Of a stretch of 64,000 bases of DNA, positions 39,858 through 57,585 are shown one piece after another. Numbering within the stretch: the stretch's first letter is position 1; each line of letters opens with the position of its first letter. The stretch is taken from assembly GCA_000004985.1 (NCBI GenBank), contig GG738850.1; one strand, given 5' to 3'. The position numbers and the translations under genes were made by a program. The DNA is from Naegleria gruberi (taxonomy: Eukaryota). The notes under the pieces are model-generated. The model searched no databases and was not told the origin of the DNA. It saw nothing but the letters and a program-made list of their open reading frames with translations.

Positions 39858-42800
39858 TACCTTCTTTGAGAATGCTGAAGCAAAGCAAATTTTCATTTTC
39901 ATCAATAGTACTGGATCATTCCAGATTTCAATCTCAATGCCTTCTCAATATTCAAAGAAAGTCATCTGCTTCTTTAAAAAGACTAAAGTTAGTATTACAC
40001 CTGAAAATATTGGAACTGCACTTATTCATTTTGAAGTGTTGGAATCACCTCTAGAAACACTTTCACTTATTTCCAACAAATTGTTCTTACCAATTTTAAA
40101 AAATAGTGTAGAACAAACATCAGCATCCGACCAAGAGGATGAAGATAAAGTCTCCCGTGATGTTGTTACCTATTTCCAAAAATTCATAGCTTCTACCTAT
40201 GTTACATCAGGACAAGTTGAAGGAAAGACACTATTGCCAATTCCACCAGATGATGTTATTCAAGAAACTTCATCCGAAAATTCGGATCAAGATAAGGATA
40301 TGATCCACACACTCGAAACAGCAGTAGTAAATTGGGCAAATCAAATCAAGGAAGTTTTAAACAAGGATCCAGAATCATTATTTGTACCAAATTATAATCC
40401 TGGTCCTCTAGATGAAATGAATTTTTGGAATTCAAAATATCTTGACTTGGAATCTGTAGCCAAACAATTAGCTGGTGAAAAGGTTACTAAAGTAATTGAA
40501 ATTTTGAAGGAAAATCAAAGTACATATATTCCATCCTTTTTAAAGATGGTCGAAGAAGTTGAAATTAGAAAACATGAAGCCTTTGAAAATCACAGATTTT
40601 TAAAACCTCTCCGTAAATATTTCGAAAGTGTAAATTTAAAGAGTGACAATCATGCAGAATATTCAGAATTACCAAATGTCTTTAGAAGTATTTTCCATTT
40701 AATTTTCATGATTTGGAAAACATCTACAACCTATAACAAGAGCGAACGTCTTGTTGTTCTTGTAAGAGAATTGTGTAATGATCTTATTGATCACTCTAGA
40801 GAATATATTGGTGGTAGAGAAATTTTCAATATGGAATTCCCAGATGCTGTTGAAAAATTTGAAAATACTCTCTCAACCTGTGGTTTGGTTAAAAAGTATT
40901 ACTTTGCTTACAAGTTAAAGGTAGAACAAGAGTGTCCAACAAATCAATGGAGAGTTCCTCCTGCTTCTCTCTTCCACAGACTTGATCACTTTTTGGAAAG
41001 ATGTAGAGATATTCTTAATATTTTTAATCAAGGTAGATTATTCGGTAAATTGGCAACACTCCAAATTGGTGGTACTAAGGGTGATTCACTCAGTAGAGAA
41101 GTTAAGGATATTTATGTACATTTCAGTGAAGAAATTGCCAAGTTTAAGGAAATTCAATATGATGCATTGGTAGTTGAAGAACAAAAGTTTGAAGAAGATT
41201 TCTATCATTTTAAGAATCAAATTAAGGAATTTGAAAAGAAAATTGGTTCTATCATTTCTAAGAGTTTTGAAGATTGTAGTACTATTCATGCTGGTGTAAA
41301 GGTTATTGAAAGTTTTGAAGGTTTACTTGATCGTGAGGCTGTTCAACAAGAAATTGTCAAAAAGCAAGGTGATTTATTACAAACCTATAGAAAAGAATTG
41401 AAGAGAGTTCAACAAACATTTACAGAATCAAAGACTAGTCCAATTATTTTCCATAACATGCCTCCAGTAACAGGAGCTATTCAATGGGCTGAATCTTTAT
41501 TGGAAAGAATTAATGGACCAATGAATAGATTAATTTCTTTGAGTAAGACCATCTTTGATAACTCTGAAGGAAAGGAAACTGTAAAACTCCATTCAAACAT
41601 TGTTGGAAAGATTAAACAATACCAACAACAAAAGTATGCTGAATGGGCCAAATCAGTTGGTGAAATTTCCGAAACTAAACTCAATGAAATGTTATTGAAG
41701 AGAACTGATGATGGAATGGTTATTGTAAATTTTGATCCTGCCCTTGTTAAACTTTTGAGAGAAGTAAATTATCTCCAAAAGATTAATACTCTCCATGAAG
41801 GAGAACCAGCATGGTCCATTCCACAAGAAGCTATTGATCTCTTTTCCAAGAATGAAAAATATAGAACTCAAACTGGTAGTTTGGAATATATTGTAAATAT
41901 GTATAACATTGTCCAAGGTTCTCTTACTCCAGTTGAAAGACCTTTATTCCAAACACAAATCCAAAAGATTGATGGTATTCTTGAAAGAGCTTTGAATAGT
42001 CTCAGTTGGAAGAATGATGTTGAAATTGATTCATTCTTATCTGAAGCCATGAATTCTGTCAAATTGGCCAGTACAACTTTATCAATTATCAAGAAGAATA
42101 CTGGAGAAATTGAAAAGGCTTTAATGAAATGGGAAAAGAACCCAATGTTCCAAAGAAAGGAAACTAGAACTTTGACAATGAAGGAGCTCGACGGAAGAAA
42201 TAAGGAAATGAAGGTTACATATGAAAAGATGGTTAAAAAGACAGGTGAACTCATTGTTGCTAAGCTTTCAGACTGTTTAGAAGTTTTGAAAGGAGGTAAA
42301 CAAAAATCTTCGGAAGAACAACTTCCAGAAGAACTAGGTTGTATCGGAGTTGATGAAAGTGCTGAGCCATGGAAGAATTTTGTCAAGCATATTAACGATA
42401 TTGTTGTAGATGGTATTTGTAAATCAGTTATTGCTTCTGTAAGAGCTCTCATGGATCAAATGAATGTTGAATATTTACTCAAGACTGAACAAAGTCCATT
42501 CCTTGAAATTTCTCTTAACCTTGTAAAGAAACCAAATAGTGAAGTGCACTTTGCTACTTTCACTCCTAGCTTGGATGAAAAGGGTGAAAATTCATTTGTA
42601 CATGTTGTTGATTCATGGATTAATGATTTTACAACAGTATCAGCTTCGATACCTAGATTGGATTCATCTTCTGGTGATTACATTAAGGAAGTTAAATCTA
42701 ATACTGATGTCATTTCTACCATTTCTCAAATTCATGAAAGTATCAAGACTGTTACAGTCGAATGTAACAAATTTGCTGAGCAATTTATTGCTCAAAAGGC

Positions 42801-45800
42801 TATTTATGAGACTGACCAAAAGGAATTCTTTGATGAATTCTTAGAAGTTAACTTCCCTCATGGCTCTCATGGTAAATCTCATCATGTTGAATTGCCAAAG
42901 TTTGATGAACAAATCAAAAAGTATCACAACATTCATGAACAAATCAAAGAACTTACTGCTTGTGATAATGCTGGTTGGTTGAGAGTCGATGCTAAACCAA
43001 TCAAGCAAGAATTACTCAAGATTTGTACCTCTTGGGAAAAGCTCTTCTCTAACTTCTTGGTACAAAACGTTTCTGAAAGATTGAACGATATTTATCAATT
43101 CATGAATACTGTTGAAAGTGGTATTGATAAAGAAGTTACTGATGGTGATATTACAACTCTCAGAGAAGTTATCAGATATATCAGAGATATTAAATCTGAA
43201 ACAGAGAGCGAAAATGGTATCTTCCAACCTCTTCAAGAAATTGTAGTTTTGCTTTCTCAATACGGAATTGAACTTGCTCCAAATCTTGTTCATACACTAG
43301 AACAAGCTCCAGTTAAATGGGATGGCCTCTATAAGAGATCATTGGTCAGAAGAACAGAACTTAGTGACTTGCAAGATAAGGAATCTCAAAAGGTTAAGGA
43401 ACAAGGTTTACAATTTGGTAAGAGGGTTTTGAAATTCCAAGAAGAATTCAGAGATATGGCTGCTTTCTTCTACAAGTCGGGTTCTCAAGATGCTTATAAA
43501 TCAATTGATAAGTGGCAAGTACTTTTGGTGGATATGGAAAAGGAAGCAACAAAGTTGAGAGAATTGCAAGACTTGTTTGAAATTACAGTAAGCGAATATA
43601 ATGCCCTCAAGACTTGTCGTGAAGAAGTTATGCTGCTCAAGTCTTTGTGGGATATCATTTCTCATATCTTGTCATTGTTCAAGGATTGGATGAAGACTTC
43701 CTTCAAGAAGGTAGATGTTGACGCACTCGTTGAAGAATCAAAGAAACTTAAAAAGACTATTCAAAACTTTAATACCAAGGCAAGAGCATGGGACAGTTAT
43801 TCAGGACTTAACAATGCTGTTAATAACATGCTTACCTCACTTCCTCTTGTTCAAGATTTGAGAAATCCTGCAATGAGAAGAAGACATTGGGATGAATTGC
43901 TCGAAGAAACTCACAAGAAGGGTGCTATTGATCCTGATGATAACTTTAATTTGGATCAATTGCTAGATCTTGGTTTGCACAGTTATGTAGATACAGTTCA
44001 AACTATTGTTGATAAGGCCAGCAAGGAATTAATTATTGAAAAGGCCCTCACAAAGGTTGAAAGTGTATGGTCTACACTCAATTTTGACTTTGGCTATGAT
44101 GGTGAATTGAAGTGTTCAATTATGGGAGCAGTAGAAGATATTGTTGAAATTCTCCAAGACAATCAAGTTCAATTGCAAAATATGTCCACTATGAAATATG
44201 TTGAATTCTTTATAGAATCATTGACCAAGTGGCAAATTGCTCTCTCCACAATTGATAGTATTATTACTGAATGGGTTGGTGTTCAAAAGAAGTGGCAAAA
44301 CCTTTATCCAATCTTTATGATGTCAAAGGATATCAAGGAAAAGTTGCACGAAGATGCTGTTCGTTTCGCTGAAGCCGATACTGAATGGAGAAACTTTATG
44401 GAAGTTGCTAAAGCTGTTCCAAAAATTGTTGAAGCTTGTACTGAACCAACTATTCGTACCAAGTTAGATACAAGTAAGGACGTTTTAGAAATCCTTCAAC
44501 ACATTGAAGAAAAGCTTGAATTGTGTCAAAAATCCTTGTCTGAATATCTTGAAACTAAGTGTAAAGCTTTCCCAAGATTCTATTTCATCAAAGCTGGTGA
44601 CGTTATTGATATTTTATCAAAGGGTTCATTCCCAAAGCTTGTCATGAAACACATGTCAAAGATTGTAGAAGCTGTTGAAACCTTAACTTTTGATGAAAAT
44701 AGTGATCTTACTAATGGTATGATTAGTAAGGAAGATGAAATCATTACCTTCCCAGATAAGTATGAATGTAAAGGACCTGTTGAAGATTGGCTCAATGGAG
44801 TTTTGAATACTATTGTTAGTTCATTGACTCATACCTTAGGTGATGCTCATGCCGCCTACGTTGAACAACAAAGAGATCAATGGGTATTCCAATTCCCTGC
44901 TCAAATTGTCATTGTTGCTTCTCGTGTTTGGTTCACAAGTGAAGTTAATTCTGCCTTTGAAAGACAAGAAGAAGGTAACAAGAATGCCTTGAAGGATTAT
45001 TACAATCAATTGAAAGATCAATTGGCTAAATTAACAACACTTGTTCAAGGTGAATTAACTCCAGGAGACAGAAAGAAGATTATTACCTTGATTACTGTCG
45101 ATGTCCACAATAGAGATATTGTTTTGAAACTTATTGAAGAAAAGGCAGAAAGCTCTCAGGTATTTACCTGGCAATCACAACTCAGATACAGTTGGGATGA
45201 TACAAAGGGTTGTACTATTAATATTGCTGATGCTGAATTTAAATATGGTTATGAATATATTGGTAACTGTGGTTGTTTGGTTATTACACCACTTACTGAC
45301 AGATGTTATATTACATTGACACAATCACTCAGATTGATTATGGGTGGTGCTCCAGCTGGTCCTGCTGGTACTGGTAAAACAGAAACAACTAAAGATTTGG
45401 GTAGAGCACTTGGTATTCAAGTCTACGTCTTTAACTGTACTGAACAAATGAATCCAGCTTCTCTTGGTAATATTTTCAAGGGTTTGTCAATGACTGGTAC
45501 ATGGGGTTGTTTCGACGAATTCAATCGTATTAGAGTTGGTGTCTTGTCTGTCGTTGCTACTCAATTCAAGTCTATTCTTGATGCTATCAAGGCTCAAAAG
45601 AAGGAATTTTTGTTTGAACAAGAAACTATTTCCCTCATTCCAACTTGTGGTGTCTTTATTACCATGAATCCTGGTTATAAGGGTCGTACTGAATTGCCAG
45701 AAAATCTTAAAGCATTGTTTAGACCATGTGCTATGATTGTTCCTGACTTTATGAATATTTGCGAAATCATGTTGGCTTCTGAAGGTTTTATCAATGCAAA

Positions 45801-48800
45801 GGAATTGGCTAAGAAATTCGTTACCTTGTATAGATTGAACAAGGAATTGCTCTCAAAACAAGATCACTACGATTGGGGTCTCCGTGCCGTTAAATCTGTA
45901 TTAGTTATTGCTGGTGGTTTGAAGAGAGCTGAACCTCAAGTTTCTGAAGACAGAATTCTCATGAGAGCTCTCAGAGATACCAATTTGGCCAAACTTTCAA
46001 GAGATGATATTGAAATCTTCAGAGGTTTAATTAGAGATTTGTTCCCAAAGATTGAAATTGAAGCAAAGAGTGATCCAGAATTGGTCAAGGCTGTCAAACA
46101 AGCAACTGAAGAAAAAAGATTACAAACAGGTGAAAATGATATTTTCATTGGAAAGGTTGTACAATTTAAGGAATTGCTTGATGTTAGACACTCTGTCTTT
46201 GTTTTAGGTCCTGCAGGTTCTGGTAAATCATGTGTTTGGAAAACTTTATCTAAGGCCTTTGAAATTCAAGGTCGTAGAACTTGGGCACACGTACTTAATC
46301 CAAAATCTGTTACCAGTGGTGAACTTTATGGTTATACTCACCCAGTTTCAAAGGATTGGAAGGATGGTCTGCTCTCCAATACTATGAGAGAAATGTACGA
46401 AACCAAGACACCATTACCAAAATGGATTGTTTTGGATGGTGATATCGATGCTGAATGGATTGAATCTATGAATACAGTCATGGACGACAATAAGGTTTTG
46501 ACATTGGCAAACAATGAAAGAATTCCTTTGAGTCCAAGTATGAGAATGCTTTTCGAAATTGATCACTTGAGAAATGCTACTCCTGCAACTGTATCAAGAG
46601 CCGGTATCTTGTTCTTGAACGAAACTGATATTGGTTGGAATCCATTCAAGGAAAGTTGGATTGAAACAAGATCTGTTGAAAAGGAAAAGCAAAATCTTGA
46701 TCGTTTGTTCTATACTTATGCACCACACATTTTGTTCTGGTTGAAGAAACACAATCACATTATTCCAAGACAAGATATCAGCATGATTCAAACATTGTGC
46801 TACTTGTTAGAAGGTTTGATTACACCAGAATCTTGTCCACCAGGTTGTTCTCATGAAATTTATGAATATTACTTTGCTTTTGCTTGTATTTGGGCATTTG
46901 GTGGTGCTTTGGAAGATGATGAAAGAGTTTTATTCAATGCCATGTTCAAGAAAGACTTCCCTCAAGTTAAATTCCCTGAAAATGCAACTGTATTTGATTA
47001 CTTTGTTGTTACTGAAGGTGAAACTGTTAGACTTGAACCTTGGGCTACAAAAGTTAAGGAATATAATCATGACTTTGAATTGCCATTCAATGAAATTGTC
47101 GTCTCTACAGCTGATACAGCACGTTTAACTTATTTGATGGACTTGTTGGCTGACAGAAGAAGACCTGTATTACTTGTTGGTACTGCTGGTACTGGTAAGA
47201 CAACCATTGTTAAGGGTAAATTGAGAAGTCTTGATGAAGAAACTCTCTACACTACAATTAACTTTAACAGTAATACTGATGCTGAATCATTCCAAAATAT
47301 TCTTGAACAATCTATTACCAAGAAGGCTGGTAAAATGTACGGTCCACCAGGTAGAAAGAAGCTTATTTACTTTATTGACGATCTTAACATGCCTAATCCT
47401 GACAAATATGGTACTCAATCTGCTGTTGAATTCCTCCGTCAACATATGGACTATGGATTTTGGTATGATAGAAATAATATGGGAGTCAAGGAAGTTACCA
47501 ATGTTCAATACCTTGCCGCTATGAATCCAAAGGCTGGTTCTTTCACAGTTACTGGTAGATTACAAAGACATTTTGGTATGTTTGCTTGTACATTCCCTGC
47601 AGATGCTGATTTGAAGACAATTTATTCTCAAATCATTTCTGCTCACGTTGAATCATTCGATAGAAGAGTTCAAACAATTAGTACTAAATTGGTTGATGCT
47701 ACAATCAAACTTCATAAGGAAGTTGCCAAGTTCTTCTTGCCAACTGCTGTCAAGTTCCACTACCAATTCAATCTCAGAGAAATTTCAAACATTTTCCAAG
47801 GTTTGTGCCGTTCTACTAAGGAACACTACAGTGATCCTGTTCACATGATTAGATTGTGGATGCACGAAGCTTTCAGAGTTTTCTCTGACAGAATGACAGA
47901 ACAAGATGATGTTAACAAATTCTCTGCTATGGCTACAAAGATTAGTAAGGATGTTCTCGATTGTGAAATTCAAGATGGGCAAAGCTTGTTGTTCAGCTCT
48001 TTCGTTGTTGAAAGTGATAACGGTACTGGTGTCTATTGTGAAGCCAATGATTTTAACAAGTTGAAGCTAGTTTTAGAAAAGAAGCTCGAAGAATACAATT
48101 CATCAAGATCAATTATGAATCTAGAATTGTTTAAGCAAGCTATTTGGCACGTTTGTAGAATTAGTCGTATTTTGTCAAATCCAAGAGGTAATGCCTTGCT
48201 GGTTGGTGTAGGTGGTAGTGGTAAACAAAGTTTGGCTAAATTGGCATCATTCATTAATAATTATGAAATTTCTCAAATCACTGTCACACCTTCCTACAAG
48301 ATTATCGATTTTAAGAAGGATCTTTTGGAATTGTACAAGAAATCTGGTGAAAAGGATATGAAGATTTCATTCATTCTTACAGATTCTCAAATCTTTGACC
48401 AAAAGCAATTGGTCTTTATTAACGACTTTTTGTCTTCTGGTTTCATTCCAGAATTGTTCACTCCTGATGATGTTGAAAAGTCAATTCAAGCTGTTCAACC
48501 TGCAGTTAAATATGCTGGTAAGGATCACAATGATAAGAAGGTTTGTTGGGACTTCTTCTTGGAAAAGGTCAAGAAGAATTTGCACTTGGTTCTTTGCTTC
48601 TCACCTGTTGGTGAACAATTGCGTGTTTGGTGCAGAAAATTCCCAGCCATTATGAACTGCTCTGTTATCGATTGGTTCCACGAATGGCCAAGAGATGCTT
48701 TAATTTCTGTTGCCTATAGATTCTTGACTGATGCTGATATGAATTTGGGTGATGACGAAATGATTAAGAATATTTCAGAACATATGGCCTTTGCTCACGA

Positions 48801-51800
48801 ATCTGTCTCAATGGCTTGTAAGAGCTATCAACACATTGAAAGAAGATACAATTATACCACACCAAAGAGTTTCTTGGAACTTATTGAAGTATACAAGACA
48901 TTGTTGGCCAAGAAGAGAGAAGAATTGAACGGAACAATTGAACGTTTGAGTAATGGTTTGACCAAGATTAATGAATCTGAAGAAAAGGTCAAGGAATTAT
49001 CAACTGTACTTGCTCAAGAAGCTATCATTGTCGAAGAAAAGAAGAGAGCAACAGAAGAACTCTTGGCTAAGGTTACAAAAGAAAATACCTTCTTAGCCAG
49101 TCAGCAAAAGATTGTCGAAGAGGAAGAAGTTAAACAAAACAAGGTTGTTGATGAAGTTAATGCCCTTGCTAAGGTCTGTACAGATGAATTGAAACAAGCT
49201 GAACCTCTTATTGAAAAGGCTAAGAAGTCATTGGAAGTTTTGAATGTTAAAGATTTCCAAGAATTGAAGTCATTTACCAATCCTCCAGCATTTGTCGACG
49301 TTGTTTTGTCTGCTGTCATGATTTTGAAGGCACAAAGAGGTGTACCAAAGAATGTTGTTTGGGCTGAATCCAAGAAGATGATGAATAATCCAAACCAATT
49401 CATGGTTGAATTAGTTTCTTACAATGCTGAATCCATTCCAAAGATTCCACAAGAAAATATTGATGCTTTGAAGAATAGCAAATATCTTCAACATCCAAAC
49501 TTTGTTCCATCCTTCATTGAAAGCAAGTCAACAGCTGCTGCTGGTTTGTGCGATTGGGTTATTAACGTTGTTGCTTTCTATGATTTGGACAAACAAATTG
49601 AACCAAAGAGACAAAAGTTGTCCCAAGCTATGGAAGAAAAGGAAAAGAACGAATCTCACTTGAAGAAGATTAGTGACAAATTGAACACACTCAGAAAGGC
49701 AAAGGAGCAAGCTGAAACTGAACACAATAATGCTGCTCAAGAATTGGTTAGAATTGAAAAGCAAAGAAAGAAGACTGAAGACAAATTGAATCTTGCTCAC
49801 AGATTGGTCAATGGTTTGTCTGATGAAAAGATCAGATGGGCTGAATCTATCAAGGATTTAAGAGAAAGAGAAAAGACTCTCGTTGGTGATGTATTGTTGG
49901 CCGCTGCTTTCCTTTCATATGTCGGTCCTTTCACCAAAAAGTATAGAAATATGCTTATTGAAGAAAAGTGGATTATCGATCTCAAAGAAAGAAAGATTCC
50001 AACATCAGAAGGTATTGATCCTCTCTTTGGTGTACTTGCTGAAGAAGCTCAAGTTGCCCAATGGAACAACGAAGGTTTGCCATCAGATAGAGTTTCAGTT
50101 GAAAATGGTTCCATTGTTACCAATTGTAAACGTTGGCCATTGTTGATTGATCCACAATTGCAAGGTGTTAAATGGATTAAGAATATGGAAAGTAAGAATA
50201 ACTTGCAAGTCATTCAATTGACAAAGAAGGGATATTTGGAAACTCTTATCCACGCTATTATGAATGGTTATCCTGTTTTGATCGAAAATATTGGAGAAAA
50301 TATTGATCCAATTCTTGATCCATTGCTTGCACAAAGTTATACAAGAAAGGGTAACTCTGTATCTATCAAGCTTGGTAATCGTGAAGTTGATTTTGATCCT
50401 AAATTCAGACTTTACCTTCAAACCAAATTACCAAATCCTCACTATAGACCTGAAATTGTTGCTCAAACAACCTTGTTGAACTTTATGGTCACTGAACAAG
50501 GTTTGGATGATCAATTGCTTGGTACTGTTGTCAATAAGGAAAGACCTGACTTGGAAGAATTGAGACTTTCATATTTGAGACAACTTAGACAATTCAAGAT
50601 TGAACTTAAGGGGTGTGAAGATGCTCTTAGAAATGAATTGTCAAATGCCAAGGGTGATTATTTGGAAAATCACAGACTTATTGATAACTTGGAAGCAACC
50701 AAGAAGAAATCTCAACAAATCAACGTCAGTCTTAAAGAAATTCTTGAAAATAACAAGATGATTGATGAAAGTCGTTCAGTTTATAGAACCGTTTCTACAA
50801 GAGGTTCCATGTTGTATTTCCTTATTGACCAATTGTCAAAGATTGACCACATGTATCAATATTCTCTTGAAGCCTTTATGGTTGTATTTAACAAGGCTCT
50901 TGAAAAGGCTGAACCAGCTGATAATGTAGATAAGAGAGTTGAAAACATTGTCGATAGTATTACAGAAACATTGTTCAGTTACGTTTCTAGAGGTCTCTTT
51001 GAAAGACACAAGCTCATCTTCTCAATGATGTTGTGTATTGAAATTATGAGAAAGAAGGGAGAAATTGAACCAAACCAAATTGACTTTTTACTTAGAGCTC
51101 CTAGAGTTGATGGTGTTGAAAGAAAGGAAACTGTTATTGGTTGGTGTTCTGAATTGAGTTGGGCCTATGTACAAGCACTTACTGCTATTGAAGGTACTAG
51201 TCCAGCATTCTCACTCTTACCAGATGATATGGCTGGTTCTTGGAGAAGATGGAAAGAATGGACTGAATTTGAAAAGCCAGAAGAAAAACCATTACCATTA
51301 GAATGGAAGAACTTGTTACCATTCCAAAAGTTGTTGATTATCAGATGTCTCAGACCTGACAGATTAACTATGGCTGTAACAAACTTTGTAAAGGAGAGAA
51401 TTGGTGAGAAATACGTTAAGGATATTCCTGTTGACCTTGAAGTTTCATATGGTGATGCAGGTCCTACTACACCATTATTCTTTATCCTTTCTCCTGGTGT
51501 TGACCCTGTAAAGGCTGTTGAAAGAATTGGTGAAAAGTTTGGTTTTACAGAATCTGCAGGTAAATTCAAGAACGTTTCTTTGGGTGAAGGTCAAACAGTT
51601 GTTGCCGAAAATGCCCTTCAACATGCTTTCAGAACTGGTGGTTGGGTCATGTTGAACAATCTTCACTTGACTCCTGAATGGTTAGGTGCTTTGGAAAAGA
51701 AATTGGATCAATATGCTGAACAATATGGTAGACAAGAAATGAGAGAAAAGAAGAGAAGAGAAAAGGAAGGATTAAAGAGATCATCCTCTGCTGCTGCTTC

Positions 51801-53472
51801 CAGGAGATTAGAAGAGGAAGAACAAGTTGAAGGTGAAAAGGGAGAAGAACCTGAAGTTGGTATTTCTATTGATCCAACCTCCCCACAAGAAGATAAGAAA
51901 GCAGAAATTCCAGAGGTTGAAGAAGATTCTGAAGAATCAGATGAAGAAGAAGATTTGGGACATCCAGACTTTAGAGTATTCCTTTCAGCTGAACCTTCTA
52001 ACCAAATTCCAATTGGTATCTTGCAAAGATCTATTAAGCTAACTAACGAACCTCCAAGTGGTTTGAGAGCCAACTTGTTCAGATCCCTTATGCAATTTGA
52101 TGATAATATTTGGGAAGGAAGTTCCAAACAAACAGAATTCAAGGGAATCTTGTTCTCACTCTGTTTCTTCCATGCTTGTATTGTTGAAAGAAAGAAGTTC
52201 GGTCCTCAAGGTTGGAACAGAAACTATCCATTTAACCTTGGTGATTTAATTACCTGTATTCACGTCTTGAACAATTACTTGGAAGATAGACCAAAGGTTC
52301 CATGGGAAGATTTGAGATACGTTTTTGGTGAAATTATGTATGGTGGCCACATTACTGATGACTGGGATAGAAAACTCTGTAAGACCTATTTGGAGAAGTT
52401 TATTAGACCTGATGTTGTTGATCAACTTGAGTTGTGTCCAGAATTCCTTTCACCTCCAACCAACTTGACTTATAAGGGATATTTGGAATATGTTGAAAAG
52501 GTTTTGCCACCTGAAAGTCCAGTTGCCTTTGGTTTGCATCCTAACGCTGAAATTGGTTTCAGAACCACTCAAGGTGAAAATATGTTCAACATGATTGCAG
52601 AAATGCAACCTCGTTCAACTTCTGCTGGTGATGGTATGTCCTACCAAGATAAGGTTCAAGCAGGTATTCGTAGAATTTTGGACACTTTACCAGAACCATT
52701 TAACCTTGAAGAAATTGCTGATAGACTTGATGAAGAAAGAACTCCATACCAAAACTCATTCTATCAAGAATGTGAATACATGAATAGATTATTGGTAGAA
52801 TTAGATAGATCACTCAAGGAATTGCAAAGTGGTTTGGATGGTTTGTTGACAATTACTGAAAAGATGACCATTCTCCAAGATTGTATCTATCAAAATAAGG
52901 TTCCAGAAACTTGGTCATCTCTTGCTTATCCATCTCCAAGAAAATTGGACTCATGGTTTGATGACTTGATGCAAAGATATGCACAATTATTGAATTGGAC
53001 AGGAGACTTGCAAACACCAAAGGTTGTTTGGATTTCTGGATTGTTCAATCCTCAATCATTCTTGACTGCCATTATGCAAACTATTGCCAGACAAAAGACT
53101 TGGGCTCTAGATGAAATGACTCTAGTTGCTGAAGTAACAAAGAAGTATGCTGTAGATGAAATTGAACAATCTGCCAGAGAAGGTGCCTATGTTACTGGTA
53201 TGTTCTTGGAAGGTGCTGGTTGGGATCCAAAGAAGAATCACTTGATCGACTCCAAATTGAAGGATTTGCATCCAAGAATGCCAATTATCCACATTAAGGC
53301 TGTTCAAAATGAAAAGTCTGATCCAAACAGCTTCTACGATTGTCCTGTTTACAGAACACCTGATAGAGGTCCTGATTATATTTTCACATGCAAGTTAAAG
53401 ACTCGTGATCATCCAAGTAAATGGATTATGGGTGGTGTTGCTATGATTTTGGATCAAGTGGATACATTGTAA
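39858..53472 (+). CDS. axonemal dynein heavy chain, exon 2 (acceptor at 39857 or alternatively 39908; both keep the frame)
   Basis: Continuous ~4,530-codon frame. The DHC N-terminal region reads ..KVICFFKKTKVSITPENI... AAA1 is [31 protein letters not shown]; the TETTKDL form fits axonemal rather than cytoplasmic dynein. AAA2 is GPAGSGKS, AAA3 is GTAGTGKT, AAA4 is GVGGSGKQS. It also has the coiled-coil stalk, AAA5/6 and a C-terminal domain. Confidence 0.95.
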
Positions 53473-53596
53473 ATAAACAATTTATTATTTAATTAAAAAC
53501 GTTTTTCTAATTTTTGAGGAGTTTTTATGTTCTAAACTTTGAATACTTATGGTATATACGAGTAGCCGAATTTAAATTATTAAGATTAAAAAGGTG

Positions 53597-53667
53597 TAGG
53601 AAGACAGGGAATCGAACCCTGATCTTAGGAACCACAATCCCATGTTCTACCACTGAACTATCTCCCT
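53597..53667 (-). tRNA. tRNA-His (anticodon GUG)
   Basis: Reverse complement AGGGAGA-TA-GTTC-AGTGGTA-GAAC-A-TGGGA-TTGTGGT-TCCTA-AGAT-CAGGG-TTCGATT-CCCTG-TCTTCCT-A. The 7-bp acceptor has one G-U pair, the D-stem is a perfect 4 bp, the anticodon loop is U-U-GUG-G-U, the T-loop is TTCGATT and the discriminator is A. No G(-1) is encoded, as expected in eukaryotes. Confidence 0.85.
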
Positions 53668-53729
53668 TCTTGCTTAAAACTAAATGAATTCATAATTTTA
53701 AAACCTCAAACTCGTCAACTCTCCGATTA

Positions 53730-53738
53730 AGGTGGCGG
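53730..53738 (+). repeat. left terminal inverted repeat GGTGGCGGT
   Basis: Direct read; preceded by TTAA (53726-53729). Confidence 0.6.
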
Positions 53739-54145
53739 TAGGTGTTTCCGAAAATATTCCTTCAATAAAAAAAAAAATTGTTGTGATGAAATACTTTTCT
53801 GTTCCTTTGCTCTCCTTTCCGTCTGCTAATAGTGAACCAATATGTGCTAATCTTTTATATCGTAAATAATATTATTGTCTAGTTGTTTTTCAAATTTTGA
53901 TCAATAGATACTAGCTTTCACAGAGAAAATTTAGAGTTTTACATTTAAAAATTAAATTAGATTTTTCACTATTTGATCCTCCTTGATCCCACGATCGGAA
54001 GAGTTTCTAAATTCAAAATAATGTAGACTGTGTGTTGGTTACTTTTCGTCATGCTTTGTCATGCTTTAATTGTGATTTTACCTTCAGTTCCACAAGAACG
54101 AAAATTGGCAAACAAAGAACAACAACAACAAACAATCACAAAAAA

Positions 54146-56044
54146 ATGCAAAGAAAATTTTGTTTTGTTTGTGGAGTCTTGACAGGTGTTTTTGCAGCAA
54201 AATTCTACACAGTTAAGAATGGATTTGTTGGTAAAATACCTATTCATCATGCATGCCACGATGGTATAATTTGTGGAAAACATTATAACATATTCAGGAG
54301 ACAATTTAATAATTTAGATGAGAACTTTACAAATATTGAATTTGGAACAAATGAAACAGTACAACATAATCACTCTAACAAAACTCAATCATATCAATTT
54401 CACATTCATAATGAAAGTAACATTTTACCCTTAGACCCACAGTCATTTAAAAGTTTAGAAAATCAAAATATCGGCCTTACCATTATTCCAACTGACCACT
54501 TGATTCGTATTGTGAAACCAGTACAGTGTAAAATCTGTGAGAGCACAAATATACATTTAAGAGAAATTACTAAAAATGGATTTGAACAGATATTCCGTTT
54601 TACTTGTTTGGCTTGTAATACGGTATTTGTTTTTAGAACATGTCCAAGGAATCTTAAATTGAATAGACATATTATTCAATCATTTGAACTCTCGAACTCT
54701 ACCTATGAATCATTTAAAACATTTACAACCCTTGTCGGATTGCCAATAATTAATAAGAAATCATATTATCAAGCAACAAACAAGTTATGGAGCAGTAGTA
54801 GTCAAGTATTAAATCAAGAAATGGACAAGGAATTGGAAAAGATTGCAAATCAGAAAATGAAACAAGTGCTTGGTCCTTTAATTTCTGCATTTGAACTGGG
54901 AAGAGAAGTTCCGGCATTGATTTACTCCTTCATTCATGATGCAATATTTTTGGATATATCAGTTGATGCAAGATATTCATCTAGGAGAAATGTTTACGAA
55001 TGTACTCTTGTGGTATTCGAAACAAAGGCAAAAAAAACAATTGAACGATCACACGTTATCAAGAAAAGAGCATCTAATAGAAAAAGTGCCTTACAATGGT
55101 TTATGGGAGCCTCTAAATTAATGGAGCCAGAAGCATGTCGTTTAGCAATTACATCTTTGAAACACAAGTCATTTCCAGTAATGGGTTATGGTATTTTACA
55201 TTTCAAAATTGGCTCTTTTGTTCATGACAAAGACTCAACTGTGGCAGCAGTCATCAAGAAATTAGAACCAACAGCATTAGAAAAGTTAGATCCAAATCAT
55301 GTAATCAAAAATCTGAGCAAGGAAGTAGAAGAAAAAGCACCCCGTATTGCCAGTATTATTGTATCATCCTTTAGGAAAGCTCTAAAATTAGCCAACACCA
55401 CCACTAATTCAAATGAGAAACTCCAAGCATTATTGAAAGCTTATCCACAACATTTACAAAATAACCATTCTCTGTGCGATTCAGGTTGTCCACACACAAT
55501 TAAACCAGAAAAATTGATCACTAAAGAGGAAGCACAAGTTGTTAAAGAAATATTTGACAAACGAATCAAATATAGTCACAAATTTTGTGATATTGCATGC
55601 AATAGCCAAAACAATGAGTCCATACATAGTACTATTTGTCATACAACACCAAAGACATTAGATTTCAGTCGAAATTATTGTGGAAGAGCTGATCTGGCAA
55701 TAGGTGAACGATTGCTTGGAAAATTTGCACAATTAAGAAAAATTCAAAGATTTATTGGTAGTCTCTTCGTGATTCCAAAAGAGCAGGCCATCAAGTTAGA
55801 TACTCAATATCATCAGGATAAAATAAGGAAACAGTCTAAAGCTTATAAGGAAAGAAGAGTGGAGCTTCGGAAAACAAAACTTAAGGTAAAAGAATCTCCA
55901 CAGCCAAAGGGAACAATTGGAAGTTGCACATGTTCGAAGGGTTCGACATGTACAAAAGCTTGTCCATGCAGAAAAGCCGGGAAATCATGTACTTCCAAAT
56001 GCTCTTGTTCCCTTACCAAATGTTCAAACAACAAAAAAGTTTGA
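54146..56044 (+). CDS. element-encoded protein (632 aa) with N-terminal zinc-finger motifs and C-terminal CXC-type cysteine cluster; putative transposase
   Basis: ATG at 54146 (cacaaaaaaATG; the ORF-track start at 54032 is TTG). It has CFVCGV...HHACHDGIICGKH (C2-CH/THAP-like spacing) and CKICESTN...CLACN (C2C2). The central ~350 aa contain acidic motifs FLDISVDARYSSRRN and SFVHDKDS, possibly DDE/DDD catalytic residues. The C-terminus CTCSKGSTCTKACPCRKAGKSCTSKCSCSLTKC fits the CXC/tesmin-like pattern CxCx5Cx3CxCx6Cx3CxCx4C. Confidence 0.65.
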   Translation: MQRKFCFVCGVLTGVFAAKFYTVKNGFVGKIPIHHACHDGIICGKHYNIFRRQFNNLDENFTNIEFGTNETVQHNHSNKTQSYQFHIHNESNILPLDPQSFKSLENQNIGLTIIPTDHLIRIVKPVQCKICESTNIHLREITKNGFEQIFRFTCLACNTVFVFRTCPRNLKLNRHIIQSFELSNSTYESFKTFTTLVGLPIINKKSYYQATNKLWSSSSQVLNQEMDKELEKIANQKMKQVLGPLISAFELGREVPALIYSFIHDAIFLDISVDARYSSRRNVYECTLVVFETKAKKTIERSHVIKKRASNRKSALQWFMGASKLMEPEACRLAITSLKHKSFPVMGYGILHFKIGSFVHDKDSTVAAVIKKLEPTALEKLDPNHVIKNLSKEVEEKAPRIASIIVSSFRKALKLANTTTNSNEKLQALLKAYPQHLQNNHSLCDSGCPHTIKPEKLITKEEAQVVKEIFDKRIKYSHKFCDIACNSQNNESIHSTICHTTPKTLDFSRNYCGRADLAIGERLLGKFAQLRKIQRFIGSLFVIPKEQAIKLDTQYHQDKIRKQSKAYKERRVELRKTKLKVKESPQPKGTIGSCTCSKGSTCTKACPCRKAGKSCTSKCSCSLTKCSNNKKV

Positions 56045-56155
56045 CTTGTAATAATAAATGATTTTTTATTAAAATTGCTAAATTTGTAATTTTGCCAATA
56101 ATAGATATTCGAATATTTGTAAACCAACATTTGCACTTCCAATTAAAATAGGTAG

Positions 56156-56164
56156 ACCGCCACC
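56156..56164 (-). repeat. right terminal inverted repeat (reverse complement GGTGGCGGT)
   Basis: Direct read; followed by TTAA (56165-56168). Confidence 0.6.
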
Positions 56165-56250
56165 TTAAAATCGTTTACTTAACTTTCGAATAACTTACTC
56201 CGTGCCATGAACACATATCAAAATTTAATTTACAATTAAAGATTTATTAT

Positions 56251-57585
56251 TTAATTTACTCTTTGGAGAATTGCTTGGTGAACATCGTTAAGTTTGACAG
56301 TCCATTGGCTCAAAGCCTTGTATCGGGTCAATTCTTGTCCTTGTGAAGAAAGTGTGATCATTTGGTTGACTTGATCAACATAACCATCCAATTTACCATC
56401 CAAAATCATGTCAATAACTAAAGCTTCAACATCTTCAGCAGAAATGCTCAATTCCTTTCCTAAGAAGGTCATCTTGATACGAGTGTATGGCTTCATAATC
56501 TTACCCAAGACACGTGTACGAATTGTCTTTAACAAATCTTCAATATATTCCTTCATGAAATTGTCTTCTAAAATAGCCTTCTTGTTATTCTTCAAAACCT
56601 TGTCGAATTCCTTGATATTGGCTTGTTGGTAGTGTTGAACAAGATCAGTCATGGCTACAATATCAGAGTGACCCTTGTATGGTTTAGCTTCGTTGGCATC
56701 AAAAGGATTGATAGAAGATTGAGACAAGATTGAAGCCAAAACCAAATACTTCAAACAATCAATACGACGTGGATTACCAGCTTCATCATATGATTTGAAA
56801 GCTTCGAAAAAGTCATTAAAAGCTTCACTCCACTTCTTTTCACGCATATACATTTTACCACCACATTCACGAATAATACCAGTAATACGAGGATTCAAAA
56901 CGACAGCACCTCCTGAAATGATACCAATACATCTTTGATAAAGTTGGGCAAGTTTCTTGAGTTGATTTTGTTCACTGTACATTTGAATTTCAAGAACATA
57001 AACATCCAACATGTTAGATGACTTCTTTTCATCGGGCGTAACACCATCTTCTAACATACACCACTTTTTAAGATCGGTAATACAAGTGTTGAGCTTTTCA
57101 AAATCACGTGTTTGTGTAAACAATTGACCTTGCTTGAGTTTGGTATTAAACCACAACTTTTCATTGTTAGCCTTTAACAAAACTTCAAGAGTCATTCCGT
57201 AGATTTGATCAAGCATATTCTTATCTGTTGATGATGATACCATAGATAAAACCTTGTTGATAGCCTTTTCACTTTCATTTCTAGAAACAATACTCATGTA
57301 GGTGAGCAATTCCTTGTAACGTTGTACCATTTGTTCCATCATACCAGCCTTGAAAAGAGTCTTGACCATTTGCTTGAGTGATTTAAAACCCCATTGTCCC
57401 TTCTCTTCTTCCAAGTCAAGGACAGTTTGGAAAAGTTCGAGGGCTTCATCCAAGTTTTCATCAACTTCACCCTTGGCAGTGTAGTAAGTATTTTCGACAA
57501 GGTTTTCATCGACTTCATCGTCCAACATTTCATCATCTCCCTTGTCATTATCATCGAGACCTACAACTTCACCTTCATCATCTTC
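56251..57585 (-). CDS. CSN2: COP9 signalosome complex subunit 2 (PCI-domain protein), exon 2
   Basis: Collinear with human CSN2: [21 protein letters not shown] against LDLEEEKGQWGFKSLKQMVKT, GVIRECGGKMHLRE against GIIRECGGKMYMRE, and PRRTTCLKYLVLANML against PRRIDCLKYLVLASIL. It then has the PCI domain and the C-terminal WTNQLNSLNQAV-like tail. Confidence 0.9.
   Translation of the reverse strand, partial: EDDEGEVVGLDDNDKGDDEMLDDEVDENLVENTYYTAKGEVDENLDEALELFQTVLDLEEEKGQWGFKSLKQMVKTLFKAGMMEQMVQRYKELLTYMSIVSRNESEKAINKVLSMVSSSTDKNMLDQIYGMTLEVLLKANNEKLWFNTKLKQGQLFTQTRDFEKLNTCITDLKKWCMLEDGVTPDEKKSSNMLDVYVLEIQMYSEQNQLKKLAQLYQRCIGIISGGAVVLNPRITGIIRECGGKMYMREKKWSEAFNDFFEAFKSYDEAGNPRRIDCLKYLVLASILSQSSINPFDANEAKPYKGHSDIVAMTDLVQHYQQANIKEFDKVLKNNKKAILEDNFMKEYIEDLLKTIRTRVLGKIMKPYTRIKMTFLGKELSISAEDVEALVIDMILDGKLDGYVDQVNQMITLSSQGQELTRYKALSQWTVKLNDVHQAILQRVN

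What the first reader, a model, noticed from the sequence alone, without database searches (positions are those of the whole stretch)
53726..56168. TTAA-flanked, TIR-bounded 2.4-kb single-ORF unit next to tRNA-His: candidate autonomous DNA transposon
A perfect 9-bp terminal inverted repeat (GGTGGCGGT at 53730-53738; ACCGCCACC at 56156-56164) abuts TTAA on each side. The TIR is GC-rich against an AT-rich genome, which makes a chance match unlikely. The unit carries one 632-aa ORF with two N-terminal zinc-finger-like motifs, acidic motifs compatible with a DDE/DDD catalytic core, and a C-terminal cysteine cluster with tesmin-like CXC spacing. It sits in a convergent 3'/3' intergenic spacer between the dynein heavy chain gene and CSN2, about 60 bp from a tRNA gene, which is a classic safe-haven insertion site in compact protist genomes. 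Size, TTAA flanks, short TIRs and a transposase of about 600 aa with a C-terminal Cys-rich domain resemble the piggyBac architecture. The termini lack the canonical CCC..GGG, and the CXC cluster is more reminiscent of KDZ-type (Kyakuja/Dileera/Zisupton) transposases. I cannot assign a superfamily from sequence alone. If TTAA belongs to the TIR rather than to a target-site duplication, a TA duplication (Tc1/mariner-like) is an alternative reading.
Basis: partly seen in the sequence, partly recalled or inferred. Interest (0 to 1): 0.65.

Follow-up and report, generated by a model that had tools for sequence, protein, structure and literature searches.

The report
Known Kolobok DNA transposon in Naegleria
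The 2.4-kb unit is an intact copy of Kolobok-1_NaeGru, an already catalogued cut-and-paste DNA transposon of the amoeba Naegleria gruberi; it is absent from the same site in a second strain, so it is a real mobile element but an ordinary, known one.

Summary
TTAAGGTGGCGGT (53727-53739) and its exact reverse complement (56156-56168) bracket a single intact 632-aa ORF (54146-56044). The unit lies 59 nt from tRNA-His, between a dynein heavy chain gene and CSN2.

It is a DNA transposon, but not piggyBac, KDZ or Tc1/mariner. The protein is 100% identical to N. gruberi XP_002681291.1. Its catalytic core matches, letter for letter apart from PDF-reading errors, 'Kolobok_1_NaeGru_1p' in the Kolobok alignment of Kojima & Bao 2022.

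Four defining Kolobok features are met:
- TTAA flanks.
- 5'-GG...CC-3' (RR..YY) termini.
- A DDE triad (D274, D361, E491) with the C/DxxH signature (D382-H385).
- An H2CH-type zinc finger.

The AlphaFold model (pLDDT 82.6) is closest to IS256/Mutator, hAT and P transposases.

A contig from another N. gruberi isolate, 99.6% identical in the flanks, has the site empty (…CCGA-ATAA-AATCG…). Its breakpoints fall exactly at the TIR/TTAA boundaries, so the insertion is polymorphic.

The 13-bp inverted repeat alone is only marginally unusual (p≈0.03). The C-terminal cluster is a tesmin-type CXC domain shared by distant relatives. tRNA targeting could not be tested. Already known; low interest.

The parts
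53727..53730 (.). Left TTAA, read as one copy of the target-site duplication
   Evidence: The empty allele L001 has a single tetranucleotide (ATAA) here. Kolobok makes TTAA duplications (PMC9587614).
53731..53739 (+). Left terminal inverted repeat GGTGGCGGT (5'-GG = the RR terminus)
53740..54145 (+). 5' non-coding part of the element; presumably holds the promoter and subterminal transposase-binding sites (inferred)
   Evidence: No ORF or RNA family found. Its function was not tested.
54146..56044 (+). Transposase gene, 632 aa, intact. Identical to XP_002681291.1 (NAEGRDRAFT_63184) and to the Kolobok-1_NaeGru transposase
54161..54283 (+). N-terminal Cys/His motif (C6, C9 ... C43, H46; C2CH spacing). 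Possible degenerate THAP-like DNA-binding finger
   Evidence: These residues are invariant between the two N. gruberi families. There is no Pfam THAP hit and model confidence is low here.
54485..55483 (+). Region matching Pfam PF20700 (residues 114-446). It includes the CCCC zinc ribbon (C128, C131, C154, C157) and the first two catalytic Asp residues
   Evidence: E=4.5e-17, profile positions 5-351 of 357. Curated KolobokP transposases hit the same profile at 7.5e-67 and 9.2e-82.
54965..54967 (+). Catalytic D274 (first D; VDARYSS)
   Evidence: Nearly invariant in alignment A1. It is the first column of the published Kolobok core alignment.
55226..55228 (+). Catalytic D361 (second D; VHDKD)
   Evidence: At least 90% conserved in the 58-sequence alignment A3. 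Aligned to the GDGD/HD column of published Kolobok sequences.
55289..55300 (+). C/DxxH signature (D382-P-N-H385)
   Evidence: [quoted passage not shown]
55451..55495 (+). H2CH-type zinc finger between the signature and the catalytic E (H436, H441, C444, C448/H450)
   Evidence: Consensus HxxGNHxxCxxxC in alignment A1. Described for Kolobok in PMC9587614 and PMC6004289.
55616..55618 (+). Catalytic E491 (NNESIHS)
   Evidence: Invariant in A1 and at least 90% conserved in A3. It is the last column of the published core alignment.
55925..56029 (+). C-terminal tesmin/TSO1-type CXC domain (C594-N628)
   Evidence: The window fragment scores E=0.016 against PF03638, below the family cut-off. The equivalent C-termini of distant homologues score 1e-07 and 2.2e-06, above the cut-off. 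The Cys pattern is conserved in A1.
56045..56155 (+). 3' non-coding part of the element. It contains a 12-bp palindrome ATATTCGAATAT at 56105-56116
   Evidence: Its function was not tested.
56156..56164 (-). Right terminal inverted repeat ACCGCCACC (...CC-3' = the YY terminus)
56165..56168 (.). Right TTAA, the second copy of the target-site duplication
53596..53667 (-). tRNA-His(GTG). This is a neighbouring host gene, not part of the element. Its 5' end is 59 nt from the insertion

Best explanation
Window 53731-56164 is a full-length, apparently functional copy of Kolobok-1_NaeGru. This is an autonomous class II (cut-and-paste) DNA transposon of the Kolobok superfamily in Naegleria gruberi. 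It is inserted at a TTAA between the dynein heavy chain/tRNA-His genes and CSN2.

Proposed mechanism:
1. The single 632-aa protein is a DDE transposase.
2. It recognises the element ends: the 9-bp TIR GGTGGCGGT plus subterminal sequence. Recognition is probably through its N-terminal Cys/His finger(s) and/or its C-terminal CXC domain.
3. Its RNase-H-like core (D274, D361, E491) cuts the element out. [quoted passage not shown]
4. It joins the element into a new TTAA with a 4-bp stagger. Repair of the stagger gives the TTAA on each side.

Shown here:
- The ends and the TTAA flanks.
- The intact ORF with conserved catalytic and signature residues.
- The fold.
- Identity to the curated Kolobok family.
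- Presence/absence polymorphism with breakpoints exactly at the ends.

Inferred:
- Which domain binds the ends.
- The chemistry of excision. By analogy with hAT and MULE relatives this would proceed through hairpins on the flanking DNA.
- Whether this copy is active today.
For: Identity:
- The ORF is 632/632 identical to P0096 = XP_002681291.1 / EFC48547.1 (NAEGRDRAFT_63184) on a 707,703-bp N. gruberi contig.
- Residues 268-495 match the text of 'Kolobok_1_NaeGru_1p' in Data S5 of Kojima & Bao 2022 (PMC9587614) at 224/228. The four differences are machine-reading errors.
- The 59%-identical paralogue P0001 is 'Kolobok_2_NaeGru_1p' in the same file.

Family features:
- The paper states that Kolobok makes TTAA duplications, ends in 5'-RR...YY-3', carries C/DxxH, and is known from Naegleria.
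- Here the flanks are TTAA, the ends are GG...CC, the signature is D382xxH385 and the DDE triad is present.

Profile:
- PF20700 is hit at 4.5e-17 over almost its whole length.
- Two curated KolobokP transposases hit the same profile at 7.5e-67 and 9.2e-82.
- 32 of 58 distant homologues also hit it.

Fold:
- The AF2 model built on a 58-sequence alignment has pLDDT 82.6 and pTM 0.76.
- The best Foldseek hit is ISCth4 (IS256 family) transposase at E=6.5e-05.

Mobility:
- L001 and L002 (ENA ERZ929261 and Logan ERR1078381) carry an identical CSN2.
- Their flanks differ from the window at 13 of 3,253 aligned positions.
- They lack exactly 53731-56168, reading ...CTCTCCGA-ATAA-AATCGTTT....

Second copy:
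- P0002 (NAEGRDRAFT_54896, on a 3,888-bp contig) is 98.7% identical over 315 aa.
- Its C-terminal extension is not encoded anywhere in the window.
Against: - The empty allele reads ATAA, not TTAA. Either the target tetranucleotide carries a SNP in one lineage (three of the 13 mismatches lie in this 63-nt spacer) or the site is an excision footprint. The two cannot be told apart here.
- One locus cannot separate a TTAA duplication from a TA duplication with a 10-bp TIR. Both predict the same empty site. TTAA is preferred only because the transposase family is Kolobok.
- No THAP domain was detected, although Kolobok transposases 'usually' have one.
- The TIR is very short (9 bp) and by itself only marginally non-random.
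- Other genomic copies could not be fetched, so copy number, independent TTAA duplications and current activity are unverified.
- I could not read the Repbase DNA consensus to compare termini.
Confidence: 0.95

Rival explanations
1. A Mutator-like element (MULE) in the strict sense, as the Pfam family name 'Mutator-like transposase' suggests.
For: - The only significant Pfam hit is PF20700 'Mutator'.
- The closest solved fold is the IS256/Mutator-family transposase ISCth4.
- IS256 transposases are related to MULEs (PMC7780238).
- One distant homologue weakly hits PF10551 MULE at 5.9e-4.
Against: - Curated Kolobok transposases hit PF20700 at 1e-67 to 1e-82, so the profile models the Kolobok core.
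- The window protein is itself listed as Kolobok_1_NaeGru.
- It has no hit to PF10551 or any other Mutator family at E≤1.
- The flanks show a 4-bp TTAA, not the 8-11-bp duplication typical of MULEs (established knowledge). No 8-11-bp direct repeat flanks the unit.
- The difference is partly one of classification, because Kolobok, MuDR, hAT and P are sister groups sharing C/DxxH.
Confidence: 0.03
2. A piggyBac-like element, based on the TTAA target, short TIRs, a transposase of about 600 aa and a C-terminal Cys-rich domain.
For: TTAA flanks, element size and a C-terminal cysteine cluster.
Against: - There is no hit to any piggyBac transposase profile at E≤1.
- The termini are GGT...ACC, not CCC...GGG.
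- The Cys cluster is a tesmin-type CXC, not the piggyBac CRD.
- The protein is a curated Kolobok.
Confidence: 0.005
3. A host gene, either an ordinary or a domesticated transposase, that happens to be flanked by a chance inverted repeat.
For: - NCBI annotates it only as 'predicted/uncharacterized protein'.
- 13-mer inverted repeats at this spacing are common in the window.
- Kolobok transposases have been domesticated repeatedly in Xenopus (PMC6004289).
Against: - The whole unit is absent from the orthologous site of a 99.6%-identical isolate, with breakpoints exactly at the inverted repeat and TTAA.
- A 99%-identical second copy lies on another contig.
- The TIRs are perfect and the catalytic residues are intact.
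Confidence: 0.015
4. A Tc1/mariner-type or other TA-duplicating element with a 10-bp TIR (AGGTGGCGGT...ACCGCCACCT), or a KDZ-type element.
For: The empty site is equally compatible with a TA duplication.
Against: - No Tc1/mariner, pogo or KDZ profile is hit at E≤1.
- The fold and the signature (C/DxxH plus H2CH) place it with MuDR, hAT, P and Kolobok.
- The protein is a curated Kolobok.
Confidence: 0.005

Closest known systems
Kolobok-1_NaeGru (Repbase family; transposase core printed in Kojima & Bao 2022, Mob DNA 13:24, Data S5)
   Same: - The transposase core is identical (224/228, with the differences being PDF-reading errors).
- Same organism.
- TTAA flanks and RR..YY termini, as defined for the superfamily.
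   Different: As far as can be tested, nothing. I could not read the Repbase DNA consensus, so the termini and full length of the deposited family were not compared with this copy. The presence/absence polymorphism at this locus and the NCBI label 'predicted protein' are merely additional facts.
Kolobok-2_NaeGru (P0001, same 707,703-bp N. gruberi contig length)
   Same: - 59-61% identical over the full length.
- Same architecture: N-terminal C2CH motif, zinc ribbon, DDE core with DPNH and H2CH, and a C-terminal CXC.
   Different: A separate family. Its DNA and ends could not be retrieved.
Animal Kolobok elements (Xenopus XKol/T2-MITE; KolobokP of bivalves)
   Same: - TTAA target and purine-purine termini.
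- DDE with C/DxxH and an H2CH-type finger.
- The same Pfam profile, PF20700.
   Different: - Only profile-level similarity; pairwise BLAST gives E=0.047.
- Xenopus elements are 7-14 kb with AG(G) termini and a clear THAP domain.
- KolobokP has long terminal direct repeats and a His-Me nuclease.
- The Naegleria element is compact (2.4 kb), encodes one protein, has no detectable THAP domain, and carries a C-terminal CXC domain.
piggyBac
   Same: TTAA target-site duplication, short TIRs, and a transposase of about 600 aa with a C-terminal Cys-rich domain.
   Different: A different transposase family and fold neighbourhood, termini that are not CCC...GGG, and a different kind of Cys domain.
IS256 / Mutator (MuDR), hAT and P transposases
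   Different: Those families make 8-11-bp, 8-bp and 7-8-bp duplications respectively (established knowledge), not TTAA. There is no significant sequence match to their Pfam profiles.

Membership tests
Kolobok superfamily | [quoted passage not shown] | tested here: met
   TTAA lies directly outside both TIRs. The empty allele has one tetranucleotide at the junction, reading ATAA with one mismatch. Caveat: a single locus cannot exclude a TA duplication with a TIR one base longer.
Kolobok superfamily | Termini 5'-RR ... YY-3' | tested here: met
   5'-GGTGGCGGT ... ACCGCCACC-3'. The criterion comes from PMC9587614.
Kolobok superfamily | DDD/E transposase with an RNase-H-like core | tested here: met
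   D274, D361 and E491 are conserved. The AF2 model has pLDDT 82.6. Fold matches are to ISCth4, Hermes, P element transposase and integrases.
Kolobok superfamily | [quoted passage not shown] | tested here: met
   D382-P-N-H385. H385 is at least 90% conserved in 58 homologues.
Kolobok superfamily | Zinc finger (H2CH type) downstream of C/DxxH and upstream of the E (present in all lineages except Kolobok1) | tested here: met
   H436, H441, C444, C448/H450, with family consensus HxxGNHxxCxxxC. Described. Metal binding was not tested.
Kolobok superfamily | Sequence homology to curated Kolobok transposases | tested here: met
   Identical to Kolobok_1_NaeGru_1p. It hits the same Pfam profile as KolobokP transposases.
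Kolobok superfamily | N-terminal THAP DNA-binding domain (usual, not universal) | tested here: inconclusive
   There is no PF05485 hit even at E≤10 on the isolated N-terminus. C6-x2-C9-x33-C43-x2-H46 has THAP-like C2CH spacing. The AF2 model has low confidence for residues 1-110.
piggyBac | piggyBac-type transposase domain (Pfam DDE_Tnp_1_7) | tested here: not met
   No hit at E≤1. No piggyBac chain appears among the listed fold matches.
piggyBac | Termini 5'-CCC ... GGG-3' next to TTAA | tested here: not met
   The termini are GGT ... ACC.
Mutator/MULE | 8-11-bp target-site duplication | tested here: not met
   No 8-11-bp direct repeat flanks the unit. The empty site accounts for only 4 bp.
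Mutator/MULE | MURA-type transposase (Pfam MULE PF10551 / Transposase_mut) | tested here: not met
   Only PF20700 is hit, and curated Kolobok proteins match that profile at 1e-67 to 1e-82.
KDZ (Kyakuja/Dileera/Zisupton) | KDZ transposase domain with associated CxC clusters | tested here: not met
   No Pfam family other than PF20700 at E≤1 on the full protein. The Cys cluster matches tesmin/TSO1 CXC, PF03638.
Tc1/mariner | Tc1/mariner-type DDE/D transposase and TA duplication | tested here: not met
tRNA-gene-targeted mobile elements (e.g. Dictyostelium TRE, yeast Ty3) | Consistent insertion at a fixed distance from tRNA genes across many copies | not testable with these tools
   Only one insertion could be seen, 59 nt from the 5' end of tRNA-His. 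Other N. gruberi copies could not be retrieved.

The most novel reading that the evidence does not exclude
Kolobok-1_NaeGru may still be active in N. gruberi. Supporting this are a polymorphic insertion, perfect TIRs, an intact ORF and a 99%-identical second copy. Its lineage-specific C-terminal tesmin-type CXC domain might then steer integration to TTAA sites just upstream of tRNA genes. That would be a DNA-transposon counterpart of the tRNA-targeted retroelements of compact protist and yeast genomes.
Probability: 0.06. Interest if true: 0.5.

Novelty: already known. Interest (0 to 1): 0.12.

Why it matters
Little is new for transposon biology. The family is already in Repbase and in a published Kolobok alignment. 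Three modest practical points follow.

1. The NCBI gene NAEGRDRAFT_63184, annotated as 'predicted protein', can be labelled a Kolobok transposase. NAEGRDRAFT_54896 and the paralogue P0001 can be labelled the same way.
2. The Pfam name 'Mutator-like transposase' for PF20700 can mislead annotators. Curated Kolobok transposases match that profile full-length.
3. The empty site in a second isolate shows the element moved recently enough to be polymorphic within the species. An intact, compact, TTAA-targeting native transposon could be of some use as a genetic tool in Naegleria if it proves active.

Tried and rejected
- Exact-protein look-ups for the window transposase, P0001, P0002 and P0096 found no contig. 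Other N. gruberi copies and their flanks therefore could not be examined.
- A scan of JGI metagenome contigs for the 24-nt left end found nothing. A protein-pattern scan with alignment A2 gave 600 pattern matches but no confirmed relative. Alignment A1 was too divergent to search with.
- Project accession PRJEB11402, which holds the empty-site contig, is not mentioned in the paper library. The isolate is therefore unidentified.
- The first AF2 run, on a 2-sequence alignment, was useless (pLDDT 30.4). It was replaced by the 58-sequence run.
- A profile search of PDB sequences found no significant relative (best E=0.17). Only fold comparison linked the protein to solved transposases.
- Direct BLASTP against a KolobokP transposase was barely significant (E=0.047). 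The link to animal Kolobok is at profile level only.
- No extended or subterminal inverted repeats lie beyond the 13 nt, and there are no meaningful tandem repeats.
- The bacterial promoter/terminator scan is not informative for a eukaryote.
- Rfam finds only the tRNA.
- Considered and rejected: piggyBac, strict MULE, KDZ, Tc1/mariner and host gene. See the rival explanations.
Full report
**Observation.**
- TTAA is at 53727-53730 and GGTGGCGGT at 53731-53739.
- ACCGCCACC is at 56156-56164 and TTAA at 56165-56168.
- Together they make a perfect 13/13 inverted repeat. Beyond the 9-bp GC-rich core the two ends are unrelated.
- The unit (2,434 bp without the TTAAs, 32.5% GC) contains one long ORF, from the ATG at 54146 to the stop at 56044, encoding 632 aa.
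- It lies between a 4,511-aa dynein heavy chain ORF ending at 53472 and a PCI-domain (CSN2-like) ORF on the opposite strand at 56251-57528.
- tRNA-His(GTG) is at 53596-53667 on the minus strand. Its 5' end is 59 nt from the left TTAA.

**Is the repeat more than chance?** Only marginally on its own.
- The 64-kb window contains 35 perfect 13-mer inverted pairs at 0.5-6 kb spacing, about what Markov-1 random sequences give. This pair is the most GC-rich of them.
- When only the two non-coding flanks of this ORF are shuffled, a perfect inverted match of 13 nt or more appears in 51 of 2,000 trials (p≈0.026).
- The case for a mobile element therefore rests on other evidence.

**Identity of the protein.**
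- The ORF hits one Pfam family, PF20700 'Mutator-like transposase'. The match is E=4.5e-17 and 62.5 bits against a cut-off of 26.5, covering residues 114-446 and profile positions 5-351 of 357. Nothing else scores at E≤1.
- A word-indexed search of 5.8 billion proteins found only two clusters, both 'predicted protein [Naegleria gruberi]'.
- Cluster membership showed that the window protein is 632/632 identical to XP_002681291.1 / EFC48547.1 (NAEGRDRAFT_63184) on a 707,703-bp contig. The window is therefore N. gruberi.
- P0002 (NAEGRDRAFT_54896) is 98.7% identical over 315 aa and sits on a 3,888-bp contig. Its divergent C-terminal 55 residues are not encoded anywhere in the window, so it represents a second copy elsewhere.
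- P0001 is a 59%-identical paralogue with the same architecture.

**Link to a named family.**
- A literature search led to Kojima & Bao 2022 (PMC9587614). It states that Kolobok elements make TTAA-specific 4-bp duplications and, unlike piggyBac, end in 5'-RR...YY-3'. They share a C/DxxH signature with hAT, P, MuDR and Dada, and are known from Naegleria.
- The paper's supplementary alignment of Kolobok cores (Data S5) contains 'Kolobok_1_NaeGru_1p'. That text equals window residues 268-495 at 224/228 positions. The four differences are dropped or swapped letters from machine reading of the PDF.
- 'Kolobok_2_NaeGru_1p' in the same file is P0001.
- Two KolobokP transposases copied from the same supplement hit PF20700 over its full length at 7.5e-67 and 9.2e-82. 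The Pfam profile called 'Mutator' therefore models the Kolobok transposase core.
- Direct BLASTP between the Naegleria protein and KolobokP is barely significant (E=0.047, around the NES motif). The relationship to animal Kolobok is at profile level.

**Anatomy of the transposase.** An exhaustive HMMER search of 1.84 billion representatives gave 95 hits at E≤1e-3, but only the two N. gruberi relatives below 1e-30. Alignments of these hits show:
- the catalytic D274 (VDARY), D361 (VHDKD) and E491 (NNESIHS);
- the C/DxxH signature D382-P-N-H385;
- an H2CH-type finger (H436, H441, C444, C448/H450) between the signature and the E. This is the position described for nearly all Kolobok lineages.

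Upstream of the core lies a CCCC zinc ribbon (C128, C131, C154, C157) inside the PF20700 match.

The extreme N-terminus has C6-x2-C9-x33-C43-x2-H46, a THAP-like C2CH spacing. No Pfam THAP hit was obtained and model confidence there is low.

The C-terminal cluster C594-C626 has the tesmin/TSO1 CXC pattern.
- The window fragment scores E=0.016 against PF03638, below the cut-off.
- The equivalent C-termini of distant homologues score 1e-07 and 2.2e-06, above it.
- The pattern is conserved in homologues of 22-40% identity, including one from the amoebozoan Stenamoeba.

**Fold.**
- With a 2-sequence alignment AlphaFold failed (pLDDT 30.4).
- With 58 homologues it gave pLDDT 82.6 and pTM 0.76, with residues 110-580 confident.
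- The best Foldseek hit in the PDB is the IS256-family transposase ISCth4 (E=6.5e-05).
- IS256 transposases are the bacterial relatives of Mutator (PMC7780238).
- This is the neighbourhood expected for Kolobok, which groups with MuDR, hAT and P. No piggyBac structure is among the listed matches.

**Mobility.**
- The neighbouring CSN2 protein is found, identical, on two short contigs from one public sample: L001 (ENA ERZ929261) and L002 (Logan ERR1078381).
- In window orientation these read ...AACTCGTCAACTCTCCGA-ATAA-AATCGTTTACTTAAC.... The sequence runs straight from the tRNA-His spacer into the CSN2 3' flank.
- After deleting 53731-56168 from the window, L001 aligns end to end with 13 mismatches in 3,253 columns. 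Two are in CSN2, none in the dynein 3' end or the tRNA, and three in the 63-nt spacer next to the insertion.
- The isolate is therefore the same species, and the unit is missing with breakpoints exactly at the TIR/TTAA boundaries.
- One of the three spacer mismatches is the first base of the target: ATAA in the empty allele, TTAA on both sides of the element. This is either an ordinary SNP in a locally variable spacer or an excision footprint. The data do not decide between them.
- A TA duplication with a 10-bp TIR predicts the same empty site as a TTAA duplication with a 9-bp TIR. TTAA is preferred because the transposase is a Kolobok.

**Explanation.** The unit is an intact autonomous copy of Kolobok-1_NaeGru.
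- Its transposase is expected to bind the short TIRs and subterminal DNA through its zinc-finger and/or CXC domains.
- It would excise the element using the DDE core and integrate it at TTAA with a 4-bp stagger.
- The ends, flanks, intact catalytic and signature residues, fold, family identity and polymorphism are shown.
- The roles of the DNA-binding domains, the excision chemistry and present-day activity are inferred.
- Alternatives are rejected or strongly disfavoured by profile, fold, termini and the empty site: strict MULE, piggyBac, KDZ, Tc1/mariner and host or domesticated gene.

**What could not be done.**
- Other genomic copies could not be fetched, and metagenome scans found nothing. 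Copy number, independent TTAA duplications and any preference for tRNA-proximal sites remain untested.
- The 'tRNA safe haven' idea rests on one insertion.

**Verdict.** The reading as a DNA transposon is right, but the superfamily leads were wrong. The element is an already catalogued Kolobok family of N. gruberi, so novelty is nil and interest is low. The small additions here are the insertion polymorphism, the functional label for three 'predicted protein' genes, and the note that Pfam's 'Mutator' profile PF20700 covers Kolobok transposases.

Noticed in passing
window 54485-55483 (PF20700 match): Pfam PF20700 is named 'Mutator-like transposase', yet curated Kolobok transposases match it full-length at 1e-67 to 1e-82. 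The name can send annotators to the wrong superfamily.
   Followed up: yes
window 56105-56116: A perfect 12-bp palindrome, ATATTCGAATAT, lies about 48 bp inside the right end and contains TTCGAA. The left end has a loosely similar CCGAAAATATTCC at about 53749-53761. From memory, LIN54-type CXC domains bind TTYGAA, so these could be binding sites for the transposase's CXC domain. Such palindromes are also common in AT-rich DNA.
   Followed up: no
window 53596-53730: The element sits 59 nt from the 5' end of tRNA-His. The 63-nt spacer between the tRNA and the insertion carries 3 of the 13 differences from the other isolate, including the first base of the target tetranucleotide (T53727 versus A).
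   Followed up: partly
P0002 and P0003 (N. gruberi contigs of 3,888 and 3,659 bp): Two further N. gruberi PF20700 proteins lie on very small contigs, probably unplaced repeat copies. P0002 is a 99% copy of this transposase with a mis-modelled N- and C-terminus. P0003 (NAEGRDRAFT_54899) is a third, 28%-identical family that lacks the CXC tail.
   Followed up: partly
homologues in alignment A3: Individual distant homologues carry extra domains: RNase_T/DEDDh exonuclease (as described for the KolobokD lineage), Ulp1 peptidase C48 (P0024), UCH, CAP-Gly and SAP. These are either real accessory fusions or gene-model artefacts on short metagenomic contigs.
   Followed up: no
window 56150-56165 (minus strand): The right terminus can fold into a small hairpin (AGGTGG-CGGT-CTACCT). 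The bacterial terminator scan flagged it. It is probably incidental.
   Followed up: no
window 39937-53472: The 4,511-aa dynein heavy chain is encoded by a single uninterrupted 13.5-kb ORF. Most large ORFs in the window are likewise uninterrupted, consistent with the intron-poor N. gruberi genome.
   Followed up: no
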